Positions 8,021 through 14,273 of a DNA stretch of 64,000 nt are shown piece after piece. The DNA lies in assembly GCA_046317855.1 (NCBI GenBank), contig JBKCVM010000147.1:3956-67955 (forward strand), written 5' to 3'. The first letter of the stretch is position 1; the number at the start of each line of letters is the position of its first letter. The position numbers and the translations under genes are program-made. Origin of the DNA: Oligoflexia bacterium (GTDB lineage: Bacteria > Bdellovibrionota > UBA1018). Below the pieces are notes generated by a model. It was given only the letters and a program-made list of their open reading frames with translations. It was not told where the DNA came from and made no database searches.

Positions 8021-9271
8021 TTACTTCGAGGCAGATTTCTTTGGGCCGTCAATGGCAACCGACAAGGTCATGTCTGAAAGCACATTGGTGACCGAGCGAG
8101 CTCGACCCAAGATCCAGTCGACCGAAAGCAGCAAAGGGAGGTTTTCGATTGGGAGGCCAACTGCTGTAAGCACGAGTGAAAGTGAAATGAAGCCAGCGTC
8201 TGGAACTCCGGCCACGCCCATTCCGGTCAGCATGCAAAGCACGGCCGCGGATAGCTGCTGTGAAAGGGTGAGATCCATTCCCATTGCCTGGGCCACTGTT
8301 AAAAAAGCCATTCCCTCATAGAGCAGAATTCCGTCGTTATTGAGGTTCGTACCCACGCACGCGCCCAGAGCTGAAGCTTGTCTCGAGACACCAAGGCGAT
8401 CGAGCGCTCGAAGCGTAAAAGGCAGAGTCGCAAGGCTTGAGTTGGTGCCGATGGACTGCACGACCGGAGTCCGGGCTTCACTCCAAAACTGTAAAAGGCT
8501 ACGCTTACAAATCAGCCGAATCCAGCCTTGGTAGGTGATCAAAATGTGGAGCGTGAGTCCCAAGAGGGCAACTCCAAGGTACGGAAAAAGACCTGACAGC
8601 GGACCGTAGCCAAAGCGAGCCACTGCTGAACTCACTGCGCCAAAAACGGCAAATGGGATGGCTCGCGTGATAAAGAAAAGAATTCGCTCCGAAAGCCGCT
8701 GCCCCAGCGCCAGGGTGTTCGAAAAGCGGGTGAGTGCATCTTCTTCTTCTTTTGGATGAGCCTGGCGGGCCTGGTGCTTGCGCTCACCCCGGATGGCTAA
8801 GCCCAACAGCAGGGCTAAGAGAATGACTGGGATCACTGCATTATCCACAAATGGCTTTAGGGTGCTATCCGGGATCCAGCTGCCTAAGTTTTTCATCCAG
8901 TCCAACTTAAGATCGTTTGCAGTGGGAGTGGTCGCAGAAATCGCCGACATCAGATCACCCGAAAGCCCTGTCCTCCAGAGCTCGCGCAGGGCGTCGCCGG
9001 GTCTCAGCCAGTGTGAGAGGAGAATTCCGATGGTGAGCGCTAGGGTTGCGTTGATCGCAGCGATCCCCACCATACGAAGCCCACTCTTGAGCCTAACCTC
9101 AGTGGAGTGAACAGCGTTGACCACGGCAAAAAAAAGAAGCGGCACAGCCACGGCCTTGATGAGTTGAACCACCCATTTGGAAACTTCAGAAAGGAGGGGG
9201 GCGACCGGTCCGGCAAATGGACCTGCCACGAGTCCCAGTAAAAGCCCAATGATGAGTGGAAGGGTTCCCAT
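8021..9271 (-). CDS. Dicarboxylate/amino acid:cation symporter (DAACS/GltP family)
   Basis: 416 aa polytopic membrane protein with conserved symporter segments (GxxxNxDG region; GVPDAGFISLSLVL hairpin-loop-like motif). Confidence 0.8.
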   Translation of the reverse strand: MGTLPLIIGLLLGLVAGPFAGPVAPLLSEVSKWVVQLIKAVAVPLLFFAVVNAVHSTEVRLKSGLRMVGIAAINATLALTIGILLSHWLRPGDALRELWRTGLSGDLMSAISATTPTANDLKLDWMKNLGSWIPDSTLKPFVDNAVIPVILLALLLGLAIRGERKHQARQAHPKEEEDALTRFSNTLALGQRLSERILFFITRAIPFAVFGAVSSAVARFGYGPLSGLFPYLGVALLGLTLHILITYQGWIRLICKRSLLQFWSEARTPVVQSIGTNSSLATLPFTLRALDRLGVSRQASALGACVGTNLNNDGILLYEGMAFLTVAQAMGMDLTLSQQLSAAVLCMLTGMGVAGVPDAGFISLSLVLTAVGLPIENLPLLLSVDWILGRARSVTNVLSDMTLSVAIDGPKKSASK

Positions 9272-10905
9272 TAGGCTCGCCGGTCCAAGTACTCATTGTA
9301 AGTGCCTTCGTAAACGCGGAGCTCGCCCTTACCGAGTTCGAAGACTTTGTTAGTCACTTGGCGCAAAAAGTGGCGGTCATGACTTACGAGGAGCACAGTT
9401 CCCTCAAAGCCTTTGAGGGCTTCGAGCAGCATCTCGCGCGAGCGAATGTCGAGATGGTTGGTGGGCTCATCCAAAATTAAAAGATTGTTGGGTCGCGCCA
9501 GGAGAGTGGCTAGAACGACGCGGCTTTTTTCTCCGCCGGAGAGGACTGCAACTTTCTTGTAAACGTCATCACCGCTGAATAAAAATGCGCCCAAAAGATT
9601 TCTGACATAGCCAATGGTGGCTTCAGGAATGCGGTCGTGGATTTCGTCAAAAATCGTCTTGTTGGGATTCAGGACGTCGAGGGCATGTTGACTGAAATAC
9701 CCAATGTTGATGCCGGCTCCCACTGACAGGTCGCCTGCCGTGGGCTCGGCTTGACCCGCTACGAGTTTGAGGAAGGTGGATTTTCCGGCGCCGTTGACTC
9801 CCACCACTGCGACACGGTCCAGGCGTTTGACGAGTCCGGTGGCGCCCGCAAACACAGTGTGGTCCGTTCCGTTTTCTTTTTTCCAAATCTTCTGAAGCTC
9901 TTTGAATCGGACAACGTCGTTTCCTCCCCGTGGTGGAACAGGAAATTCAAACGACACGGACCGCTCCTCAGTCGGAATCTCAACGCGGTCGATCTTCTCA
10001 AGCTTTTTGATACGCGACTGAACTTGGGCGGCGTGCGACGCACGGGCTGCAAAGCGAGCGATGAACTCTTCTTCTTTTGCCAACATGTCTTGCTGCTTTT
10101 TGTGCTGAGCAAGCAGCTGTTCACGGCGGATTTCACGCTCGCGCTCGTAAAAGTCATAATTTCCCGAGTAGCTGGTGACTGTCTGATTGGCGACCTCGAC
10201 AACTCGCGAGACGATGCGGTTCATGAACTCACGGTCATGGCTTGTCATGACGAGTGCGCCCTTGAAGTTGCGGAGCCACTCTTCCAGCCAAAGGATGGAT
10301 TCTAAGTCCAGATGGTTAGTGGGCTCGTCCATCAGCAGTACATCAGGCTGGAGTACGAGCATCTTGGCGAGTTCGATCCGCATTTTCCAGCCACCGCTGA
10401 AGCTCTCGACACGGGCAGAATGGTCATCCGGCCCGATACCAAGCCCCGTGAGGACTTCACGCGCGCGGGATTCGAGCGTGTAGCCGCCGCGGCTCTCAAA
10501 TTCGAGCTGCAGTTCGCCCATGCGCTCGATGACGGTATTCATGCGTTCCATCGATGCTTCGTCATCCATTTTGGAAGAGAGCTCTGTGAGCTCGTCTTCG
10601 AGCGCTTTGAGGCGGCTAGCCAGCTCTGAAACCTTGCCCGCTCCGGCCATGACTTCTTCAAGGGCCGTGCGGCCCTTCATTTCACCAACCTCTTGTGAAA
10701 AATACCCGATCACCCACTTGTCCGGGCGGGTCACCGTGCCAGAGTCAATGCCCTGCTCGCCCATGATGATTCGAAAAATGGAAGTCTTGCCGGCGCCATT
10801 GGGGCCCACGAGGCCGATCTTTTCTCCGGGTTTGATCTGCAAGCTTGCGCCCTTGTAGAGGACCTTCGAGCCGTACTGCTTATGGATGTCGGATAGGGCG
10901 ATCAC
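9271..10905 (-). CDS. ABC-F family ATPase (two tandem ABC domains, no transmembrane domain)
   Basis: Two Walker A motifs (GPNGAGKTS, GVNGAGKST), two ABC signature motifs (LSGGEKSRV, FSGGWKMRIELA), and an inter-domain linker. Confidence 0.85.
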   Translation of the reverse strand: MIALSDIHKQYGSKVLYKGASLQIKPGEKIGLVGPNGAGKTSIFRIIMGEQGIDSGTVTRPDKWVIGYFSQEVGEMKGRTALEEVMAGAGKVSELASRLKALEDELTELSSKMDDEASMERMNTVIERMGELQLEFESRGGYTLESRAREVLTGLGIGPDDHSARVESFSGGWKMRIELAKMLVLQPDVLLMDEPTNHLDLESILWLEEWLRNFKGALVMTSHDREFMNRIVSRVVEVANQTVTSYSGNYDFYEREREIRREQLLAQHKKQQDMLAKEEEFIARFAARASHAAQVQSRIKKLEKIDRVEIPTEERSVSFEFPVPPRGGNDVVRFKELQKIWKKENGTDHTVFAGATGLVKRLDRVAVVGVNGAGKSTFLKLVAGQAEPTAGDLSVGAGINIGYFSQHALDVLNPNKTIFDEIHDRIPEATIGYVRNLLGAFLFSGDDVYKKVAVLSGGEKSRVVLATLLARPNNLLILDEPTNHLDIRSREMLLEALKGFEGTVLLVSHDRHFLRQVTNKVFELGKGELRVYEGTYNEYLDRRA

Positions 10906-10926: not shown

Positions 10927-11460
10927 TCAGGGGTGCGCAAAGGTGGATTCGCCCCGCACTGCGGCCCAGGCGGCAAGCACGGCACCCGCCAGCCAGAGGG
11001 CGCTAAAAACAGCCGAAGCCGAGTGCAAGTGTCCGTTCTGCAAGCCTGCCCACATCAAAAGCGCCCACGAAAGGGCCATGATTGGCGTGAAGATCCAAAA
11101 CCCCATTCGCACCGAGACCCTCCGCTCGTCACGCGACAAGAACGTGCGCGCCGCAAGCCCGGTAAGCAGGCTGAAGGCCACCCCGCAGCCCAGGCCGCAC
11201 ACGGCATCGCCATAGGATGCCAAAAAGGCGAGCGGATCAAACTCAAGGCCCAGCGGATGAAAGCCGAACTGCGGGCAGACCAGTAGCGACAGAGCCGCGG
11301 CTACTGAGTGAATGCCGAGCACCTTGAAAAGAAGCAAAAGGTAACTGGGCTCAAGCTCCTGCCTCACGAGGGTCTGCAGTTCATCTCGAATGATGGGTGA
11401 GGGCTGGAGCTCCGGTGATTGAACAATCGAGTCCCAGGAGTCATCGTGCACGGGCTTCAT
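10927..11460 (-). CDS. Putative membrane-bound anti-sigma factor (177 aa, several TM helices)
   Basis: Overlaps the upstream ECF sigma gene by 4 bp (translationally coupled). Hydrophobic TM segments and no ZAS motif. Assignment is by position only. Confidence 0.4.
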   Translation of the reverse strand: MKPVHDDSWDSIVQSPELQPSPIIRDELQTLVRQELEPSYLLLLFKVLGIHSVAAALSLLVCPQFGFHPLGLEFDPLAFLASYGDAVCGLGCGVAFSLLTGLAARTFLSRDERRVSVRMGFWIFTPIMALSWALLMWAGLQNGHLHSASAVFSALWLAGAVLAAWAAVRGESTFAHP

Positions 11461-12029
11461 CGAACGTTCCCTCCCGAAAGCGAGCGGAGCTTTTTTACTG
11501 CGCGGCTCACGCGCTGGCGTGCTGAGGCGGACGAGATGCCCAGGCGCGCGGCAATGGCTTCGAAGGAAAACTCACGCAGGTACCTGAGCTCAAGCACTTC
11601 ACGATGTGGGGGCTCCAGCCGGTCGAGCAGGGGCTGGGCCAGCACGGGGTCTTGTCCGGTACCTGGCGGGTTCTCGGCTTGCGGCTCCGAAAGGGTCTCG
11701 AGCACCGCTTCGGGAGCCTCATGGCCGGGCCGGGCCGGGTTCTTGAATTCACGCCGGAGCGCGTCAATGAGCTGGGTGCGGATGAGCGAAAAAAACCACG
11801 GCCCGAAGGGTTGGCTGGGATGGTACTGGTGGCGGGCCCGGTGCAGCTTTAAAAAAACGGCCTGTAAAATCTCTTCGGCTCGAGCACGGTCACCAATCCG
11901 AGTGACGAGGTACCCCAGCACCTGCCCAGAGTGGCGGGCGTAGAGTGTATTAAAGGCATGGGCGTCGCCGGATTGGTAAAGCTTCATGAGGGACTCATCG
12001 TTTGGTTCCGTTTTTGCCTTCTCCGTCAT
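11457..12029 (-). CDS. ECF-family RNA polymerase sigma factor (sigma-70 regions 2 and 4)
   Basis: DESLMKLYQSGDAHAFNTLYARH aligns with the ECF region 2.1/2.2 pattern (compare RpoE LVERVQKGDQKAFNLLVVRY). C-terminal region 4 HTH (FEAIAARLGISSASARQRVSRA). ATG at 12029 is chosen; the ORF-track TTG at 12047 is an extension. Confidence 0.8.
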   Translation of the reverse strand: MTEKAKTEPNDESLMKLYQSGDAHAFNTLYARHSGQVLGYLVTRIGDRARAEEILQAVFLKLHRARHQYHPSQPFGPWFFSLIRTQLIDALRREFKNPARPGHEAPEAVLETLSEPQAENPPGTGQDPVLAQPLLDRLEPPHREVLELRYLREFSFEAIAARLGISSASARQRVSRAVKKLRSLSGGNVR

Positions 12030-12036
12030 GAATGAA

Positions 12037-12090
12037 TACGCTCTCAAAAAATAATTTGTGACCAGTCACAAGGCATCCTGGCCCTTCGTA
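12037..12090. promoter_or_regulatory. Palindromic back-to-back ECF-type promoters: GTCACA-N16-CGTA on both strands sharing a TGTGAC-CA-GTCACA core
   Basis: Plus strand: GTCACA at 12065-12070, a 16-nt spacer, then CGTA at 12087-12090, upstream of the Cys-rich ORF. Minus strand: GTCACA (complement of 12057-12062), a 16-nt spacer, then CGTA (complement of 12037-12040), 7 nt before the sigma ATG. This resembles the TGTCACA-N16-CGTC class of ECF promoters. Confidence 0.4.
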
Positions 12091-12130
12091 CCTTTCAATG
12101 ACAGGCCATCACTAAAAGGAGATTTTGACC

Positions 12131-12349
12131 ATGAATTCATTCAAGAAATCAATTTACGGCGCCCTATTTGCCCTCTCGGCTGCCGCCATTTCGACCCCAC
12201 CGGCCCTGGCTGCCGGCAAGGAGTGTGCATGTGATTCGAAGTGCATGGAGAGCTGTGCCAAGGGAGACACCAAGAGCTGTTCGTGCAAGACCTGCGATTG
12301 CTCCAAGGACAAGGGCTGCAGTCACGATAAGTGCAATCACAAGCGCTGA
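12131..12349 (+). CDS. Secreted Cys-rich mini-protein (72 aa; signal peptide plus about 45 aa with 12 Cys in CxC/CxxC arrays), metallothionein-like
   Basis: RBS AAAGGAG lies 10 nt upstream of the ATG. Signal peptide ...PPALAAG, then KECACDSKCMESCAKGDTKSCSCKTCDCSKDKGCSHDKCNHKR. Confidence 0.55.
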   Translation: MNSFKKSIYGALFALSAAAISTPPALAAGKECACDSKCMESCAKGDTKSCSCKTCDCSKDKGCSHDKCNHKR

Positions 12350-12415
12350 GCCGGTTGACTCGAGTACGAAATATGCGACACCCTCCTGAGCGGGCGACAG
12401 CCAGGGGGGTGTTTC

Positions 12416-12739
12416 GTGAAGAGTTCAGTGCTTGGGAGTATTTTCGCTTTAGGTGCTCTGCTTTCTGTCCCGGCTTTTTGTGAGGAGTCGGCGGCAGGTG
12501 TCAATCTCAGGTTCAAGGCCGTGGATGTCTGCACGATGTGGGGCAGCTTTCAGGACCGCGACGGCAGGCCCTTTCAGGGCTGCACTCTTTACCCGCGTCG
12601 CATGGAAATCGTCGACTCCTTCAGCCTGCAACAGGAACTGACGGCGCTCGAGCGCCGAATTGAGAAGCTCGAGGCCCTGATCCAGAGGATCGAGGAGCTC
12701 GAAAGTTTGGCTCTTCTCAAGTCCAAGTCCTTCCCCTAA
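12416..12739 (+). CDS. Secreted hypothetical protein with C-terminal coiled-coil (107 aa)
   Basis: GTG start, signal peptide, C-terminal LTALERRIEKLEALIQRIEELE heptads. Confidence 0.35.
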   Translation: MKSSVLGSIFALGALLSVPAFCEESAAGVNLRFKAVDVCTMWGSFQDRDGRPFQGCTLYPRRMEIVDSFSLQQELTALERRIEKLEALIQRIEELESLALLKSKSFP

Positions 12740-12750
12740 AGTGCCGCGTC

Positions 12751-13506
12751 ATGAGTGCGCAGCCCGGTAGTTCGTCAGGTCCTTCCCTTAAGCCCCACAT
12801 CCGCCTAGCGGCCGATCCCCGCTTCAAGCGAGCGGTTGTCTGTGGCGCTCCGGAGCGAGCCGCGCTGATTGCAAGCCAGCTCGAAAATCCGCAGGAGCTG
12901 GCCAAGAACCGTGAGTATCATTCGTACATCGGAAAGCACAAAGGCGTCGAAGTGATGGCCATCTCCCATGGAGTGGGCGCTGCCGGCGCCACGATCTGCT
13001 TTCAGGAGTTGATCGATGTGGGTGTGCAGTCGATCATCCGAGTAGGGACGGCAGGGGGTCTGCAGGACGAAGCGCAGATCGGCGATGTGGCGCTTGCCGT
13101 TGCAGCGGTCCGGCAGGAGGGTGTGACCCCGCTCATGGTGCCGATGGGTTTTCCGGCCGTGGCCGACTCGGCACTGACCGCCGGTCTTGCAGGCGCCCTG
13201 CTCGAAAAAGGCCGCAAGTTCCATCGCGGCGTCGTGCTCACGAGCGATGTGTTTTACCCGGGAATTTTGGACACCGACCTCAGGCTCTACCAAAAGGCCG
13301 GTTGCGTTGCCGTGGAGATGGAGTGCTCGGCGCTTTTTGTTACGGCACTGCTCAGGCGCGTGCGCGCGGCCGGCGTGCTAGCGCTCGATGGTAATCCGCT
13401 TAAGTGGGCTGAAGGAAACTATAATCCTACCGCAGGATCGCTCGACCAGGCGCTTCGCGCCGCAATCGCGGCCGCGCTCGACGCCATCGTGCTGCCGGTT
13501 GAGTGA
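12751..13506 (+). CDS. Nucleoside phosphorylase, PNP/UDP family 1 (purine nucleoside or uridine phosphorylase-like)
   Basis: SHGVGAAGATICFQELIDVGVQSIIRVGTAGGL and VEMECSALF are family-1 nucleoside phosphorylase motifs. Confidence 0.7.
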   Translation: MSAQPGSSSGPSLKPHIRLAADPRFKRAVVCGAPERAALIASQLENPQELAKNREYHSYIGKHKGVEVMAISHGVGAAGATICFQELIDVGVQSIIRVGTAGGLQDEAQIGDVALAVAAVRQEGVTPLMVPMGFPAVADSALTAGLAGALLEKGRKFHRGVVLTSDVFYPGILDTDLRLYQKAGCVAVEMECSALFVTALLRRVRAAGVLALDGNPLKWAEGNYNPTAGSLDQALRAAIAAALDAIVLPVE

Positions 13507-14273
13507 GTTTTTCAAAGCACCCCATCTTATTCGAAGACGCCGACCTGGTGCTGGTGGACAAACCGGCTGGCGTGCTCTCGCACCCCAACCCCGGCGCCAA
13601 GGCCGCGCCAGGCTCCTGCGCCTTTGAGGGAAAGTACGATTTCAACGCCAAGACCTTTGCCACGCCCTCGGGCACGCTCTGGCTTTTGCACCGGCTTGAC
13701 CAAGACACTTCGGGCGTGTTGCTTGCCGCTCGAACCGAAAAGGCTGCGCGCGCGTTGCGCGAAGCCTTTGATGCCGGGCGCGTGGCCAAGCACTACCTTG
13801 CACTGGTGCGCGGGATTGCCGACGAAAAGGGAGTGTGGCGCGACCACCTTGAGTCGTCTCGAGAGGGGCGCGGGGGGCGTGACGGCTCGCGCGTTCGCAC
13901 GCGCGTGGTGCGCGGTCGCGCTGCCAATGCCGAGCTCAAGTTTGTGCGACGCGAGGTTTTTGCCGCGCAGCGGGTGAGCCTGCTTGAGATTGAGCTCGTC
14001 ACCGGGCGCACGCACCAGATCCGTGTTCAGGCCGCCTCACGCCAGCACCCGATTGCTGGCGATGACCTTTACGGCGATTTTGCCTGGAACAAGCGTCTGC
14101 GCAAGGAGTGGGGCCTTAAGCGCTTGTTCCTCCACGCTGCATCGCTTGAGTTTGTGCACCCCGGCACCAGGCGGCGCGTTTGCATCGAGTCTGCGCTGCC
14201 GGGGGAGCTGGAGCGGGTCAAGGGGGACACATCCCCTCTCGTGAAAAGCGTCAACACGTCCACCCCATGCTAG
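13503..14273 (+). CDS. RluA-family pseudouridine synthase
   Basis: HRLDQDTSGVLL catalytic Asp motif and TGRTHQIRVQ motif; 4-bp overlap with the upstream gene. Confidence 0.8.
   Translation: MSFSKHPILFEDADLVLVDKPAGVLSHPNPGAKAAPGSCAFEGKYDFNAKTFATPSGTLWLLHRLDQDTSGVLLAARTEKAARALREAFDAGRVAKHYLALVRGIADEKGVWRDHLESSREGRGGRDGSRVRTRVVRGRAANAELKFVRREVFAAQRVSLLEIELVTGRTHQIRVQAASRQHPIAGDDLYGDFAWNKRLRKEWGLKRLFLHAASLEFVHPGTRRRVCIESALPGELERVKGDTSPLVKSVNTSTPC

What the first reader, a model, noticed from the sequence alone, without database searches (positions are those of the whole stretch)
12029..12131. Perfectly symmetric back-to-back ECF-type promoters (GTCACA-N16-CGTA on both strands) built on a TGTGAC-CA-GTCACA palindrome; sigma gene appears leaderless
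In the 83-bp divergent region, each strand carries GTCACA, a spacer of exactly 16 nt, then CGTA. The two -35 hexamers are the two arms of one palindrome (12057-12070). On the plus strand this places a TSS about 33 nt upstream of the Cys-rich gene, which has a good RBS. On the minus strand the -10 ends 7 nt before the ECF sigma ATG (12029). That implies an autoregulated, leaderless sigma transcript. Such a mirror-image single-site arrangement would let one sigma factor drive both its own operon and a divergent effector gene. It could alternatively be a 5-4-5 CRP/FNR-type dimer site (TGTGA-N4-TCACA).
Basis: seen in the sequence. Interest (0 to 1): 0.6.

Follow-up and report, generated by a model that had tools for sequence, protein, structure and literature searches.

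The report
Mirror-image ECF sigma promoter pair
Two back-to-back promoters for one stress-type (ECF) sigma factor sit between the sigma gene and a secreted cysteine-rich protein gene; the layout is real and conserved across predatory-bacteria relatives (Bdellovibrionota), but it is a tidy example of a known regulatory design, not a new mechanism.

Summary
GTCACA-N16-CGTA occurs once on each strand (12065-12090 +, 12037-12062 -) and nowhere else in 64 kb (0.03 expected). The two -35 boxes form TGTGAC-CA-GTCACA. In 14 of 14 related loci chosen by protein similarity alone, the same -35/-10 pair lies upstream of the sigma gene, while the spacers differ. A protein-blind scan of 185,579 genomes for the full mirror motif gave 5 hits, all beside ECF sigma genes. 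The palindrome is a by-product of packing. Its arm gap is 1, 2, 3 or 15 nt. Three loci with no metal-related divergent operon keep only the sigma-side promoter. That rules out a CRP/FNR-type dimer site. The -35 matches the published ECF41 signature (TGTCACA), but this 190-aa sigma is not ECF41: it has no C-terminal extension, has a downstream 4-helix membrane partner, and shows no significant similarity to an ECF41 sigma. The divergent genes vary between loci but most have a recognisable metal-related component, so a metal or thiol stress module is likely. The leaderless claim is unresolved. The ATG lies 7 nt after CGTA, 1-2 nt short of the usual start position, and most orthologues have leaders. 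Verdict: a well-supported new member of a known kind, of moderate interest.

The parts
12057..12070 (.). Palindrome TGTGAC-CA-GTCACA, made of the two abutting -35 boxes
   Evidence: It is TGTGACCGGTCACA or TGTGACATGTCACA in most related loci. The arm gap is 1-3 nt in most loci and 15 nt in L023.
12065..12070 (+). -35 box GTCACA of the promoter for the Cys-rich gene
   Evidence: These columns are invariant in the intergenic alignment A1.
12087..12090 (+). -10 box CGTA of the promoter for the Cys-rich gene, 16 nt after the -35
   Evidence: TACG is invariant in A1. The spacer is 15-16 nt across loci.
12099..12100 (+). Predicted transcription start of the Cys-rich gene (T|G step, 9th/10th nt after CGTA), giving a 5' UTR of about 31 nt
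   Evidence: Inference from the rule in Todor et al. 2020 applied to the sequence. Not measured.
12116..12121 (+). Shine-Dalgarno sequence AAGGAG, 9 nt before the ATG at 12131
   Evidence: AAGGAG is also present before the orthologous small genes.
12131..12349 (+). Gene for a 72-aa exported Cys-rich protein (signal peptide, 9 invariant Cys), the divergent effector
   Evidence: No Pfam or NCBIfam family matches. The family has only 7 clusters, all annotated 'hypothetical'.
12057..12062 (-). -35 box GTCACA of the sigma-operon promoter (GGTCACA if 12063 is included)
   Evidence: Invariant in A1. Present upstream of the sigma gene in 14 of 14 protein-selected loci.
12037..12040 (-). -10 box CGTA of the sigma-operon promoter, 16 nt after the -35
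12027..12029 (-). Sigma start codon ATG. Its A (12029) is the 8th nt after CGTA, so the predicted start site falls on or inside this codon
   Evidence: The source annotation of P0001 uses the same 190-aa start. TSS rule. Leaderless status is not established.
11457..12029 (-). [quoted passage not shown]
   Evidence: Pfam Sigma70_r2, Sigma70_r4, Sigma70_r4_2 and Sigma70_ECF. TIGR02937 at 91 bits against a cut-off of 42.9.
10927..11460 (-). Gene for a 177-aa four-helix membrane protein, overlapping the sigma stop codon by 4 nt; the putative anti-sigma factor and sensor
   Evidence: CPQFG and three Cys are invariant. It has four hydrophobic segments. The AF2 model has pLDDT 86.4. No Pfam family and no PDB fold match. 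It always follows the sigma gene.

Best explanation
The 101-bp region between the ECF sigma gene and the Cys-rich gene holds two independent promoters of the form (G/T)GTCACA-N15/16-CGTA. They are placed back to back, so their -35 boxes abut and read as a palindrome. Both are most likely recognised by the sigma factor encoded next door. Proposed working, with all steps inferred: at rest the sigma is held at the membrane by the co-transcribed four-helix protein, through that protein's short N-terminal cytoplasmic helices. A metal or thiol-reactive signal acts on the protein's three invariant cysteines and its His-rich loop, and the sigma is released. RNA polymerase carrying this sigma then fires leftward, making more sigma and anti-sigma (positive feedback). 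It also fires rightward, making an exported Cys/His-rich, probably metal-binding, protein from an mRNA with a leader of about 31 nt and a strong ribosome-binding site. What is shown: the sequence motif, its conservation, and its strict association with this gene pair. What is inferred: which sigma reads it, where transcription starts, what the signal is, and whether the sigma mRNA is leaderless (I put that at about 0.4 for this window).
For: (1) There are 2 matches in the window against 0.03 expected. (2) In the alignment of seven orthologous intergenic regions, the invariant columns are TACG, TTGTGAC, GTCACA, CGTA, a T-tract in the sigma-side spacer and two isolated A columns. (3) Fourteen non-redundant loci were found through the sigma, the anti-sigma-like protein or the Cys-rich protein, with no reference to the motif. 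All 14 carry GTCACA-N15/16-CGTA upstream of the sigma gene. Across 187.8 kb of held DNA there are 42 strict matches against 0.61 expected, and all but one lie in that intergenic region. (4) In the reverse test, a scan of the genome collection for the 20-base mirror motif gave 5 loci. Four are Bdellovibrionota loci with a homologous sigma next to the motif, and the anti-sigma-like gene is also detected in three of them (in L010 the held DNA ends inside the sigma gene). The fifth lies beside a SigJ/ECF41-type sigma. (5) The mirror arm tracks the effector. It is present wherever a metal-related divergent operon is present. It is absent in L016, L020 and L021, which lack such an operon. L017 has a third copy ahead of another gene. 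(6) The DNA-recognition helix of sigma-4 reads SASARQRVSRA. This resembles ECF41 SigJ (EAAARQLASRA), which reads TGTCACA, and differs from the GTV(R/K)SR(I/L)x(R/Y)A of RpoE, AlgU and SigL. (7) No sigma-70-type promoter is predicted in the region. (8) The divergent operons include HMA/CopZ-MerP-like proteins, a MerT-like protein, and TolC/CzcC-like plus CzcB-like proteins.
Against: There is no transcript or start-site data, and no biochemical test that this sigma reads the motif. Four of the two-sided examples (L010, L012, L013, L014) were selected by the motif itself, and a fifth scan hit, L011, is the same contig as the protein-selected locus L001. The metal signal is inferred only from neighbouring genes and from Cys/His content. 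On the leaderless sub-claim: the usual ECF start site (9th-10th nt after the -10) would fall on the T or G of the ATG, not on the A.
Confidence: 0.85

Rival explanations
1. The palindrome TGTGA-N4-TCACA is the operator of a dimeric transcription factor (CRP/FNR-like or another kind) that controls both divergent genes. On this view the CGTA boxes are incidental.
For: The arms are identical to CRP half-sites (TGTGA/TCACA), from my own knowledge of the CRP consensus TGTGA-N6-TCACA. The palindrome is conserved in most loci.
Against: The gap between the hexamer arms is 1 nt (L007), 2 nt (most loci), 3 nt (L017, L018, L019) or 15 nt (L023). A dimer with fixed geometry would not tolerate that range. 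L016, L020 and L021 keep a single arm plus CGTA at N16. L017 has a lone third arm plus CGTA. CGTA is invariant at 15-16 nt on each side, outside any 14-bp operator. No CRP/FNR-family gene was noticed among the called genes of the fetched loci, apart from a LysR-type gene in a few. The window itself was not searched for such genes.
Confidence: 0.03
2. The promoters are real, but a different sigma reads them: a true ECF41-type sigma encoded elsewhere in the genome. The adjacent sigma has some other, unidentified promoter specificity.
For: Wecke et al. state that the -35 TGTCACA is specific to ECF41. A genuine ECF41 locus (L013) has the identical mirror layout.
Against: The motif travels with this particular sigma/anti-sigma pair through 27-61% sequence divergence, and even where the effector is lost. 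Published ECF41 regulons are local, consisting of the neighbouring COE gene and the ECF41 gene itself. The adjacent sigma's recognition helix shares the A-R-Q-x-x-S-R-A pattern with ECF41, which explains the shared -35 without a second sigma. The preferred -10 here is CGTA, not CGTC.
Confidence: 0.07
3. The symmetry itself is functional. The abutting -35 boxes make the two polymerases compete or cooperate, giving a fixed expression ratio or an either/or choice between sigma and effector, so the palindrome is selected for and is not merely compact packing.
For: A gap of 1-3 nt is kept in about 15 loci across deep divergence, including an unrelated ECF41 locus. Each promoter's A/T-rich spacer lies where the other promoter's UP element would be (UP-element positions). 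For -10-symmetric bidirectional promoters in E. coli, one polymerase binding event is reported to exclude the other (abstract).
Against: L023 works with the same gene pair and a 15-nt gap. One-sided versions exist. No occupancy data exist. Compactness alone explains the abutment.
Confidence: 0.2

Closest known systems
ECF41 sigma factors and their TGTCACA-N16-CGTC promoters (Wecke et al. 2012, PMC3426412)
   Same: Almost identical promoter: -35 (T)GTCACA, a 16 +/- 1 spacer, and a CGTN -10. The regulon is local. [quoted passage not shown] One true ECF41 locus (L013) has the same abutting mirror layout. The recognition-helix pattern ARQxxSRA is shared.
   Different: The window sigma is 190 aa with no C-terminal SnoaL-like extension. 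It has a membrane partner gene directly downstream. It has no COE neighbour. It shows no significant similarity to an ECF41 sigma (BLASTP E = 5.4), and SigJ/ECF41 models are absent from its 25 best NCBIfam hits. The -10 is CGTA in all 33 unique sites, not CGTC.
Caulobacter sigmaF-NrsF (ECF16) heavy-metal response (Kohler et al. 2012, PMC3511200)
   Same: A small ECF sigma is co-transcribed with a multi-pass membrane negative regulator that has a very short cytoplasmic N-terminus and conserved cysteines thought to face the periplasm. The sigma operon is autoregulated and the regulon is small.
   Different: NrsF has six transmembrane segments and belongs to DUF1109. The protein here has four and matches no Pfam family. 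The sigmaF promoter is GTAACC-N16-CGAA. No sequence relationship was detected.
Cupriavidus CnrH-CnrY-CnrX cobalt/nickel system (reviewed in PMC6851896)
   Same: An ECF sigma drives two promoters, one for its own regulatory operon and one for a metal-efflux operon (cnrYp, cnrCp). The anti-sigma acts through a short (45-aa), two-helix cytoplasmic N-terminus, the class II anti-sigma domain. The protein here has two short N-terminal helices of about 39 aa. Some family members control CzcC/CzcB-like efflux genes. CnrH is among the PDB sequence hits (E = 1e-6).
   Different: CnrY is single-pass and needs a separate sensor, CnrX. Here there is one four-helix protein with its own Cys/His residues and no CnrX-like gene. 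The promoter sequences differ.
Bidirectional bacterial promoters built on -10 element symmetry (Warman et al.; bioRxiv 10.1101/2020.01.31.928960; PMC12825309)
   Same: A pseudo-symmetrical DNA sequence drives divergent transcription from one compact region.
   Different: In those promoters the shared, symmetric element is the -10 region, and the two binding events exclude each other. Here the symmetry axis lies between two separate -35 boxes. Each promoter has its own -10, and the predicted start sites are about 70 bp apart.

Membership tests
ECF (group IV) sigma-70 family sigma factor | [quoted passage not shown] | tested here: met
   Pfam Sigma70_r2 (residues 29-94), Sigma70_r4 / r4_2 (134-182) and Sigma70_ECF; 190 aa. 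TIGR02937 scores 91.1 bits against a cut-off of 42.9.
ECF (group IV) sigma-70 family sigma factor | Bipartite promoter with a CGT-type -10 about 16 nt after a group-specific -35, upstream of its own gene (autoregulation) | tested here: met
   The sequence and its conservation are shown. Actual use by this sigma is not testable with these tools.
ECF (group IV) sigma-70 family sigma factor | A co-transcribed anti-sigma factor that binds the sigma | tested here: inconclusive
   A four-helix membrane protein always follows the sigma gene, and in the window their reading frames overlap by 4 nt. It has no recognised anti-sigma domain and no fold match in the PDB. Binding was not tested.
ECF41 | C-terminal SnoaL-like extension of about 100 aa fused to the sigma | tested here: not met
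   The protein is 190 aa and sigma-4 ends at about residue 182. No further domain is present.
ECF41 | No anti-sigma factor; a neighbouring COE gene (carboxymuconolactone decarboxylase, oxidoreductase or epimerase) as the sole target | tested here: not met
   The downstream gene is a membrane protein. The divergent gene is a Cys-rich secreted protein. ECF41 definition taken.
ECF41 | Sequence membership (SigJ / TIGR02957-type models) | tested here: not met
   These models are absent from the window sigma's 25 best NCBIfam hits, whereas the L013 sigma hits NF007214 at 3.1e-62. The pairwise BLASTP E-value is 5.4. SigJ is not among the window sigma's PDB hits.
ECF41 | Promoter signature TGTCACA-N16(+/-1)-CGTC | tested here: met
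   The -35 and the spacer match: (G/T)GTCACA, N15-16. The -10 is CGTA, not CGTC.
CRP/FNR-type dimer operator | Inverted half-sites at a fixed spacing (CRP: TGTGA-N6-TCACA) | tested here: not met
   The pentamer spacing here is N4. Across loci it is N3, N4, N5 or N17, and lone half-sites also occur. The CRP consensus is from my own knowledge.
NrsF / DUF1109 anti-sigma factors | Six transmembrane segments and the DUF1109 sequence family | tested here: not met
   Four hydrophobic helices. No Pfam hit even at E <= 10 for any of 7 members.
Symmetric -10 bidirectional promoters (Warman type) | -10 elements overlapping on opposite strands, with closely spaced start sites | tested here: not met
   The two CGTA boxes are 46 bp apart, with the -35 boxes between them. 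Description of the class.
A named group in the current ECF classification (ECF Hub; Casas-Pastor et al. 2021) | Match to a group-specific HMM | not testable with these tools
   The group HMMs are not available here. The main text of the paper does not mention Bdellovibrio or Oligoflexia.

The most novel reading that the evidence does not exclude
This is an unclassified ECF sigma / four-helix Cys-triad anti-sigma family confined to Bdellovibrionota. It has independently arrived at, or retained, the ECF41 -35 specificity through the same ARQxxSRA recognition helix. It is carried around as a compact, mirror-symmetric bidirectional promoter cassette of about 54 bp. The effector arm of that cassette has been swapped repeatedly among metal-homeostasis genes: a Cys-rich periplasmic protein, an HMA/MerT-like operon, and a CzcCB-like efflux system. 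In about half of the lineages the sigma mRNA has no room for a ribosome-binding site, so it would be leaderless or nearly so.
Probability: 0.45. Interest if true: 0.55.

Novelty: new member of a known kind. Interest (0 to 1): 0.4.

Why it matters
The finding gives a clean, conserved and very compact promoter pair (about 54 bp of defined sequence) for a small, self-contained sigma/anti-sigma switch. ECF switches of this kind are used as orthogonal parts in synthetic biology, and a natural two-output version is handy. It also shows that the TGTCACA -35, published as diagnostic of ECF41, is used by a structurally different sigma family that has the same recognition-helix pattern. That is a useful data point for the sigma-4/-35 specificity code, and a warning against assigning regulons from the motif alone. 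Finally, it points to an unannotated membrane protein family (CPQFG plus CxxxCG) as a candidate metal or thiol sensor, and to an unannotated exported Cys-rich protein as its output, in a poorly studied phylum. None of this overturns current understanding.

Tried and rejected
1. CRP/FNR-type operator: rejected because the arm spacing varies and lone half-sites occur.
2. ECF41 membership of the sigma: rejected on architecture and sequence.
3. A conventional sigma-70 promoter in the region: none predicted.
4. A known RNA element in the leaders: no credible Rfam match.
5. A conserved leader hairpin bridging an AAGGAG to the second ATG in L001/L007, which would have argued against leaderless starts: the folds are no better than shuffles (z = -0.57 and -1.55), so I dropped it.
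6. NrsF/DUF1109 or any other Pfam family for the membrane protein: no hit at E <= 10. No fold relative in the PDB either (best E = 0.86). The AlphaFold-database library was unavailable.
7. Pfam or NCBIfam family for the Cys-rich protein: none.
8. Extra regulon members in the window: none, even with one mismatch.
The narrower A2 gave only 4 loci.
10. A literature search for described back-to-back or overlapping ECF promoters found nothing. The ECF41 paper does not mention palindromes.
11. Failed calls with no bearing on the result: 35, 36 and 51.
Full report
**Observation.**
- On the + strand, GTCACA (12065-12070) is followed by exactly 16 nt and then CGTA (12087-12090).
- On the - strand, GTCACA (complement of 12057-12062) is followed by 16 nt and then CGTA (complement of 12037-12040).
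- The two hexamers are the arms of TGTGAC-CA-GTCACA (12057-12070).
- A pattern search finds these two sites and no others in 64 kb, against 0.03 expected; none of 100 shuffles reached two matches.
- Allowing one mismatch, with either N16 or N15, adds nothing.
- The palindrome alone is less remarkable (0.12 expected).
- One detail is wrong: the ATG-to-ATG interval is 101 bp, not 83 bp. The figure 83 is the distance from an upstream in-frame TTG at 12047.

**The genes.**
[quoted passage not shown] It is identical to a protein annotated in an Oligoflexia MAG, with the same start codon.
- Membrane protein gene (10927-11460, - strand): it overlaps the sigma stop codon by 4 nt and encodes 177 aa. 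It matches no Pfam or NCBIfam family.
- Cys-rich gene (12131-12349, + strand): a 72-aa protein with a signal peptide and a dense Cys scaffold, preceded by AAGGAG.

**Conservation in relatives chosen by protein, not by motif.** The sigma has only seven clusters at 55-61% identity and one at 42% among 5.8 billion proteins. I fetched their contigs. I then added loci found through the membrane protein and through the Cys-rich protein.
- This gives 14 non-redundant, assessable loci. All 14 carry GTCACA-N15/16-CGTA upstream of the sigma gene.
- A fifteenth locus (L009) is cut 31 nt upstream of the gene but still shows GCGTATTC.
- In the alignment of seven intergenic regions, the invariant columns are TACG, TTGTGAC, GTCACA, CGTA, a T-tract in the sigma-side spacer and two isolated A columns. 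The rest of the two spacers varies freely.
All but one lie in the sigma-upstream intergenic region.
- The pooled consensus is (G/T)GTCACA(A), N15-16, CGTA(T/C)(T/C).

**The reverse test.** I scanned one genome per species (185,579 species) for the full 20-base mirror motif, TACG-N15/16-TGTGAC-N1/2-GTCACA-N16-CGTA, with no reference to any protein. Five loci matched. For uniform base composition I estimate roughly four chance matches; that figure is my own arithmetic, not a tool result. All five loci place the motif directly upstream of an ECF sigma gene.
- Four are Bdellovibrionota MAGs with a sigma 27-59% identical to the window's. The anti-sigma-like gene is detected in three of them; in L010 the held DNA ends inside the sigma gene.
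- The fifth (L013, a Chloroflexia MAG) encodes a SigJ/ECF41-type sigma (NF007214, E = 3.1e-62; PDB SigJ, E = 1.9e-39).

**The palindrome is not the functional unit.**
- The gap between the two hexamers is 1 nt in L007, 2 nt in most loci, 3 nt in L017, L018 and L019, and 15 nt in L023.
- L016, L020 and L021 have only the sigma-side promoter. These are exactly the loci without a metal-related divergent operon. L020 is a close relative of L019, has the same neighbours, lacks the HMA operon, and lacks the mirror arm.
- L017 has a third, lone copy ahead of a gene downstream of the anti-sigma gene.

So the working unit is one -35 box plus one -10 box. The palindrome arises when two such units are packed back to back. 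This rules out a dimeric operator of the CRP/FNR kind.

**Relation to ECF41.** TGTCACA-N16-CGTC is the published signature of group ECF41, said to be specific to that group. [quoted passage not shown] That paper does not mention palindromes or overlap, and I found no other description of abutting ECF -35 boxes.
- The window sigma is not an ECF41 protein. It has no C-terminal extension and no COE neighbour, and it has a membrane partner.
- ECF41 models are absent from its 25 best family hits. A direct comparison with the L013 sigma gives E = 5.4.
- Its closest solved relative is Mtb SigL, and only at E = 5.5e-11.
- The DNA-recognition helix of sigma-4 is nevertheless alike. The window sigma reads S-A-S-A-R-Q-R-V-S-R-A, SigJ reads E-A-A-A-R-Q-L-A-S-R-A and L013 reads P-T-A-T-R-Q-L-A-S-R-A. 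RpoE and AlgU read G-T-V-R-S-R-I-F-R-A, and SigL reads G-T-V-K-S-R-L-H-Y-A.

I take this as a plausible reason for the shared -35. It is an inference and has not been tested.

**Leaderless or not.** In the window the ATG follows CGTA by 7 nt, so its A is the 8th nucleotide.
- Todor et al. place the likely ECF start at the two positions that correspond to the 9th-10th nucleotide after the last base of the CGTN box, usually at a pyrimidine-purine step. They also report leaderless, A-initiated ECF transcripts.
- The mapped ECF41 starts are consistent with that spacing (with Table 5).
- A start at A12029 is therefore possible (there is a C|A step) but lies 1-2 nt upstream of the usual position. 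A start at the T or G would remove the ATG.
- No other in-frame ATG, GTG or TTG exists before Met15.
- The DExLM motif just upstream of Met15 is conserved as protein, with synonymous Leu codons CTC, TTG and TTA. This argues that translation starts upstream of it, at 12029.

Across the family the distance from CGTA to the start codon is as follows:

| Distance (nt) | Loci |
|---|---|
| 7 | window, L001 |
| 8 | L017/L018, ECF41 L013 |
| 13 | L019, L020, L022 |
| 14 | L012 |
| 19-40 | L002, L003, L005, L007, L008, L010, L016, L021 (my own reading of the start codons for L008 and L010) |
| 154 | L014 |

About half of the loci therefore leave no room for a ribosome-binding site, but the window's nearest relatives do have leaders. 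I rate a leaderless sigma mRNA in this window at about 0.4.

**Likely biology.** The membrane protein family is tiny: 19 clusters, all annotated 'hypothetical', with no Pfam domain.
- It keeps CPQFG and three cysteines invariant down to 22% identity.
- A confident model (pLDDT 86.4) shows two short N-terminal helices and four membrane helices. The cysteines flank the first loop, and a His-rich loop lies between helices 3 and 4.
- No solved structure resembles it.
- In size and layout it recalls the class II anti-sigma domain of CnrY and the cysteine-dependent multi-pass NrsF. It is not a member of either family.

The divergent genes differ by lineage, and in most lineages the divergent operon has at least one metal-related or metal-binding-looking component:
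- the Cys/His-rich secreted protein (window, L001, L002, L005, L008, L023);
- a secreted protein of about 205 aa with no family match, followed by a periplasmic HMA (CopZ/MerP-like) protein and then a MerT-like (L010) or uncharacterised 119-aa (L019, L022) protein (L010, L012, L019, L022);
- TolC/CzcC-like (L014, L017) plus CzcB-like (L017) efflux components; the L018 contig has the same promoter pair but its genes were not examined.

A metal or thiol stress switch with swappable outputs is the most economical reading. It rests on gene content only.

**Verdict.** The two-promoter interpretation is well supported, the CRP/FNR alternative is rejected, and the leaderless claim remains open. Autoregulated ECF sigmas with a divergent target promoter are textbook, and both-sides motifs were already noted for ECF41. 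The finding is therefore a new member of a known kind. Its modestly unusual features are a perfectly mirrored, deeply conserved layout, ECF41-type promoter specificity in a non-ECF41 sigma, and an unannotated Cys-based membrane partner.

**Limits.**
- No expression data of any kind are available.
- Only 64 kb of this genome could be searched for further regulon members.
- The ECF Hub classification and the AlphaFold-database fold library could not be consulted.
- Four of the two-sided examples (L010, L012, L013, L014) were themselves picked by the motif, and a fifth scan hit, L011, is the same contig as the protein-selected locus L001.

Noticed in passing
window 10927-11460 (-); relatives in L002, L003, L005, L012, L014, L016, L017, L019-L023: The 177-aa protein after the sigma gene belongs to an unannotated four-helix membrane protein family: 19 clusters in 5.8 billion proteins, no Pfam domain. 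CPQFG and three Cys (C62, C88, C92) are invariant, and there is a His-rich loop. The AF2 model is confident (pLDDT 86.4), but no PDB fold relative was found.
   Followed up: partly
window 12131-12349 (+); L001 556-822 (-), L002 1970-2218 (-), L005 3648-3896 (-), L008 16-264 (-), L023 3501-3770 (+): The exported 72-89 aa proteins share 9 invariant cysteines (C-x-C-D-x-x-C-x3-C ... C-x-C-x2-C ... C-x4-C) and usually a His-rich tail. The family has only 7 clusters, all 'hypothetical', and looks like a periplasmic metallothionein-type binder.
   Followed up: partly
L013 587-697 (Chloroflexia MAG CAVZON010000006.1): A genuine SigJ/ECF41-type sigma has the same abutting mirror promoter (TGTGACCGGTCACA with CGTA at N16 on both sides). 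Its ATG lies 8 nt after CGTA, which is the usual leaderless geometry. The divergent gene is a deazaflavin-dependent nitroreductase-family protein, not a classical COE gene.
   Followed up: partly
L014 5856-6009 and L017 4020-4544: In L014 a 31-codon ORF (MTHRLSLQKKGSIRNPYYGQSMLTCGERLGR) lies between the promoter and the sigma gene. Its NPYYG..M..CGE motif recurs at the C-terminus of the 174-aa protein in L017, which has its own third GTCACA-N16-CGTA promoter. This may be a metal-binding motif; it was not investigated.
   Followed up: no
L010 453-1733 (+), L012 5512-6430 (-), L019 2147-3422 (-), L022 2146-3407 (-): This is an alternative effector operon driven by the mirror arm. It encodes a secreted protein of about 205 aa with no family match that ends in an aromatic residue or close to one (my guess: a small outer-membrane barrel). 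Next come a signal-peptide HMA (CopZ/MerP-like) protein and, except in L012 as far as examined, a protein of about 120 aa, MerT-like in L010 (weak hit, E = 1.2e-4) and with no family hit in L019 and L022.
   Followed up: partly
window 12041-12056 and the equivalent spacers in L001-L008: The sigma-side spacer carries a T-tract that is invariant among close orthologues. In several loci the other spacer starts with an A-tract. Each tract lies where the opposite promoter's UP element would be, so spacer and UP element may be the same DNA. This is speculative.
   Followed up: no
window 12371-12409 and 12416-12739 (+): After the Cys-rich gene's stop codon there is an imperfect GC-rich inverted repeat (ACACCCTCC ... 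GGGGGGTGT) followed by TTCG, which could be a weak terminator. Next comes a 107-aa ORF with a signal-peptide-like N-terminus and a coiled-coil-like C-terminus. That ORF is not found at the orthologous loci.
   Followed up: no
window 8021-10905 (-) and 12751-14273 (+): Wider synteny is conserved with the loci of P0002, P0005 and P0006. ABC-F ATPase and SDF-family transporter genes lie downstream of the anti-sigma gene. PNP_UDP_1 phosphorylase and pseudouridine synthase genes lie beyond the effector. The ABC-F gene starts 21 nt after the anti-sigma stop codon, so co-transcription cannot be excluded.
   Followed up: no
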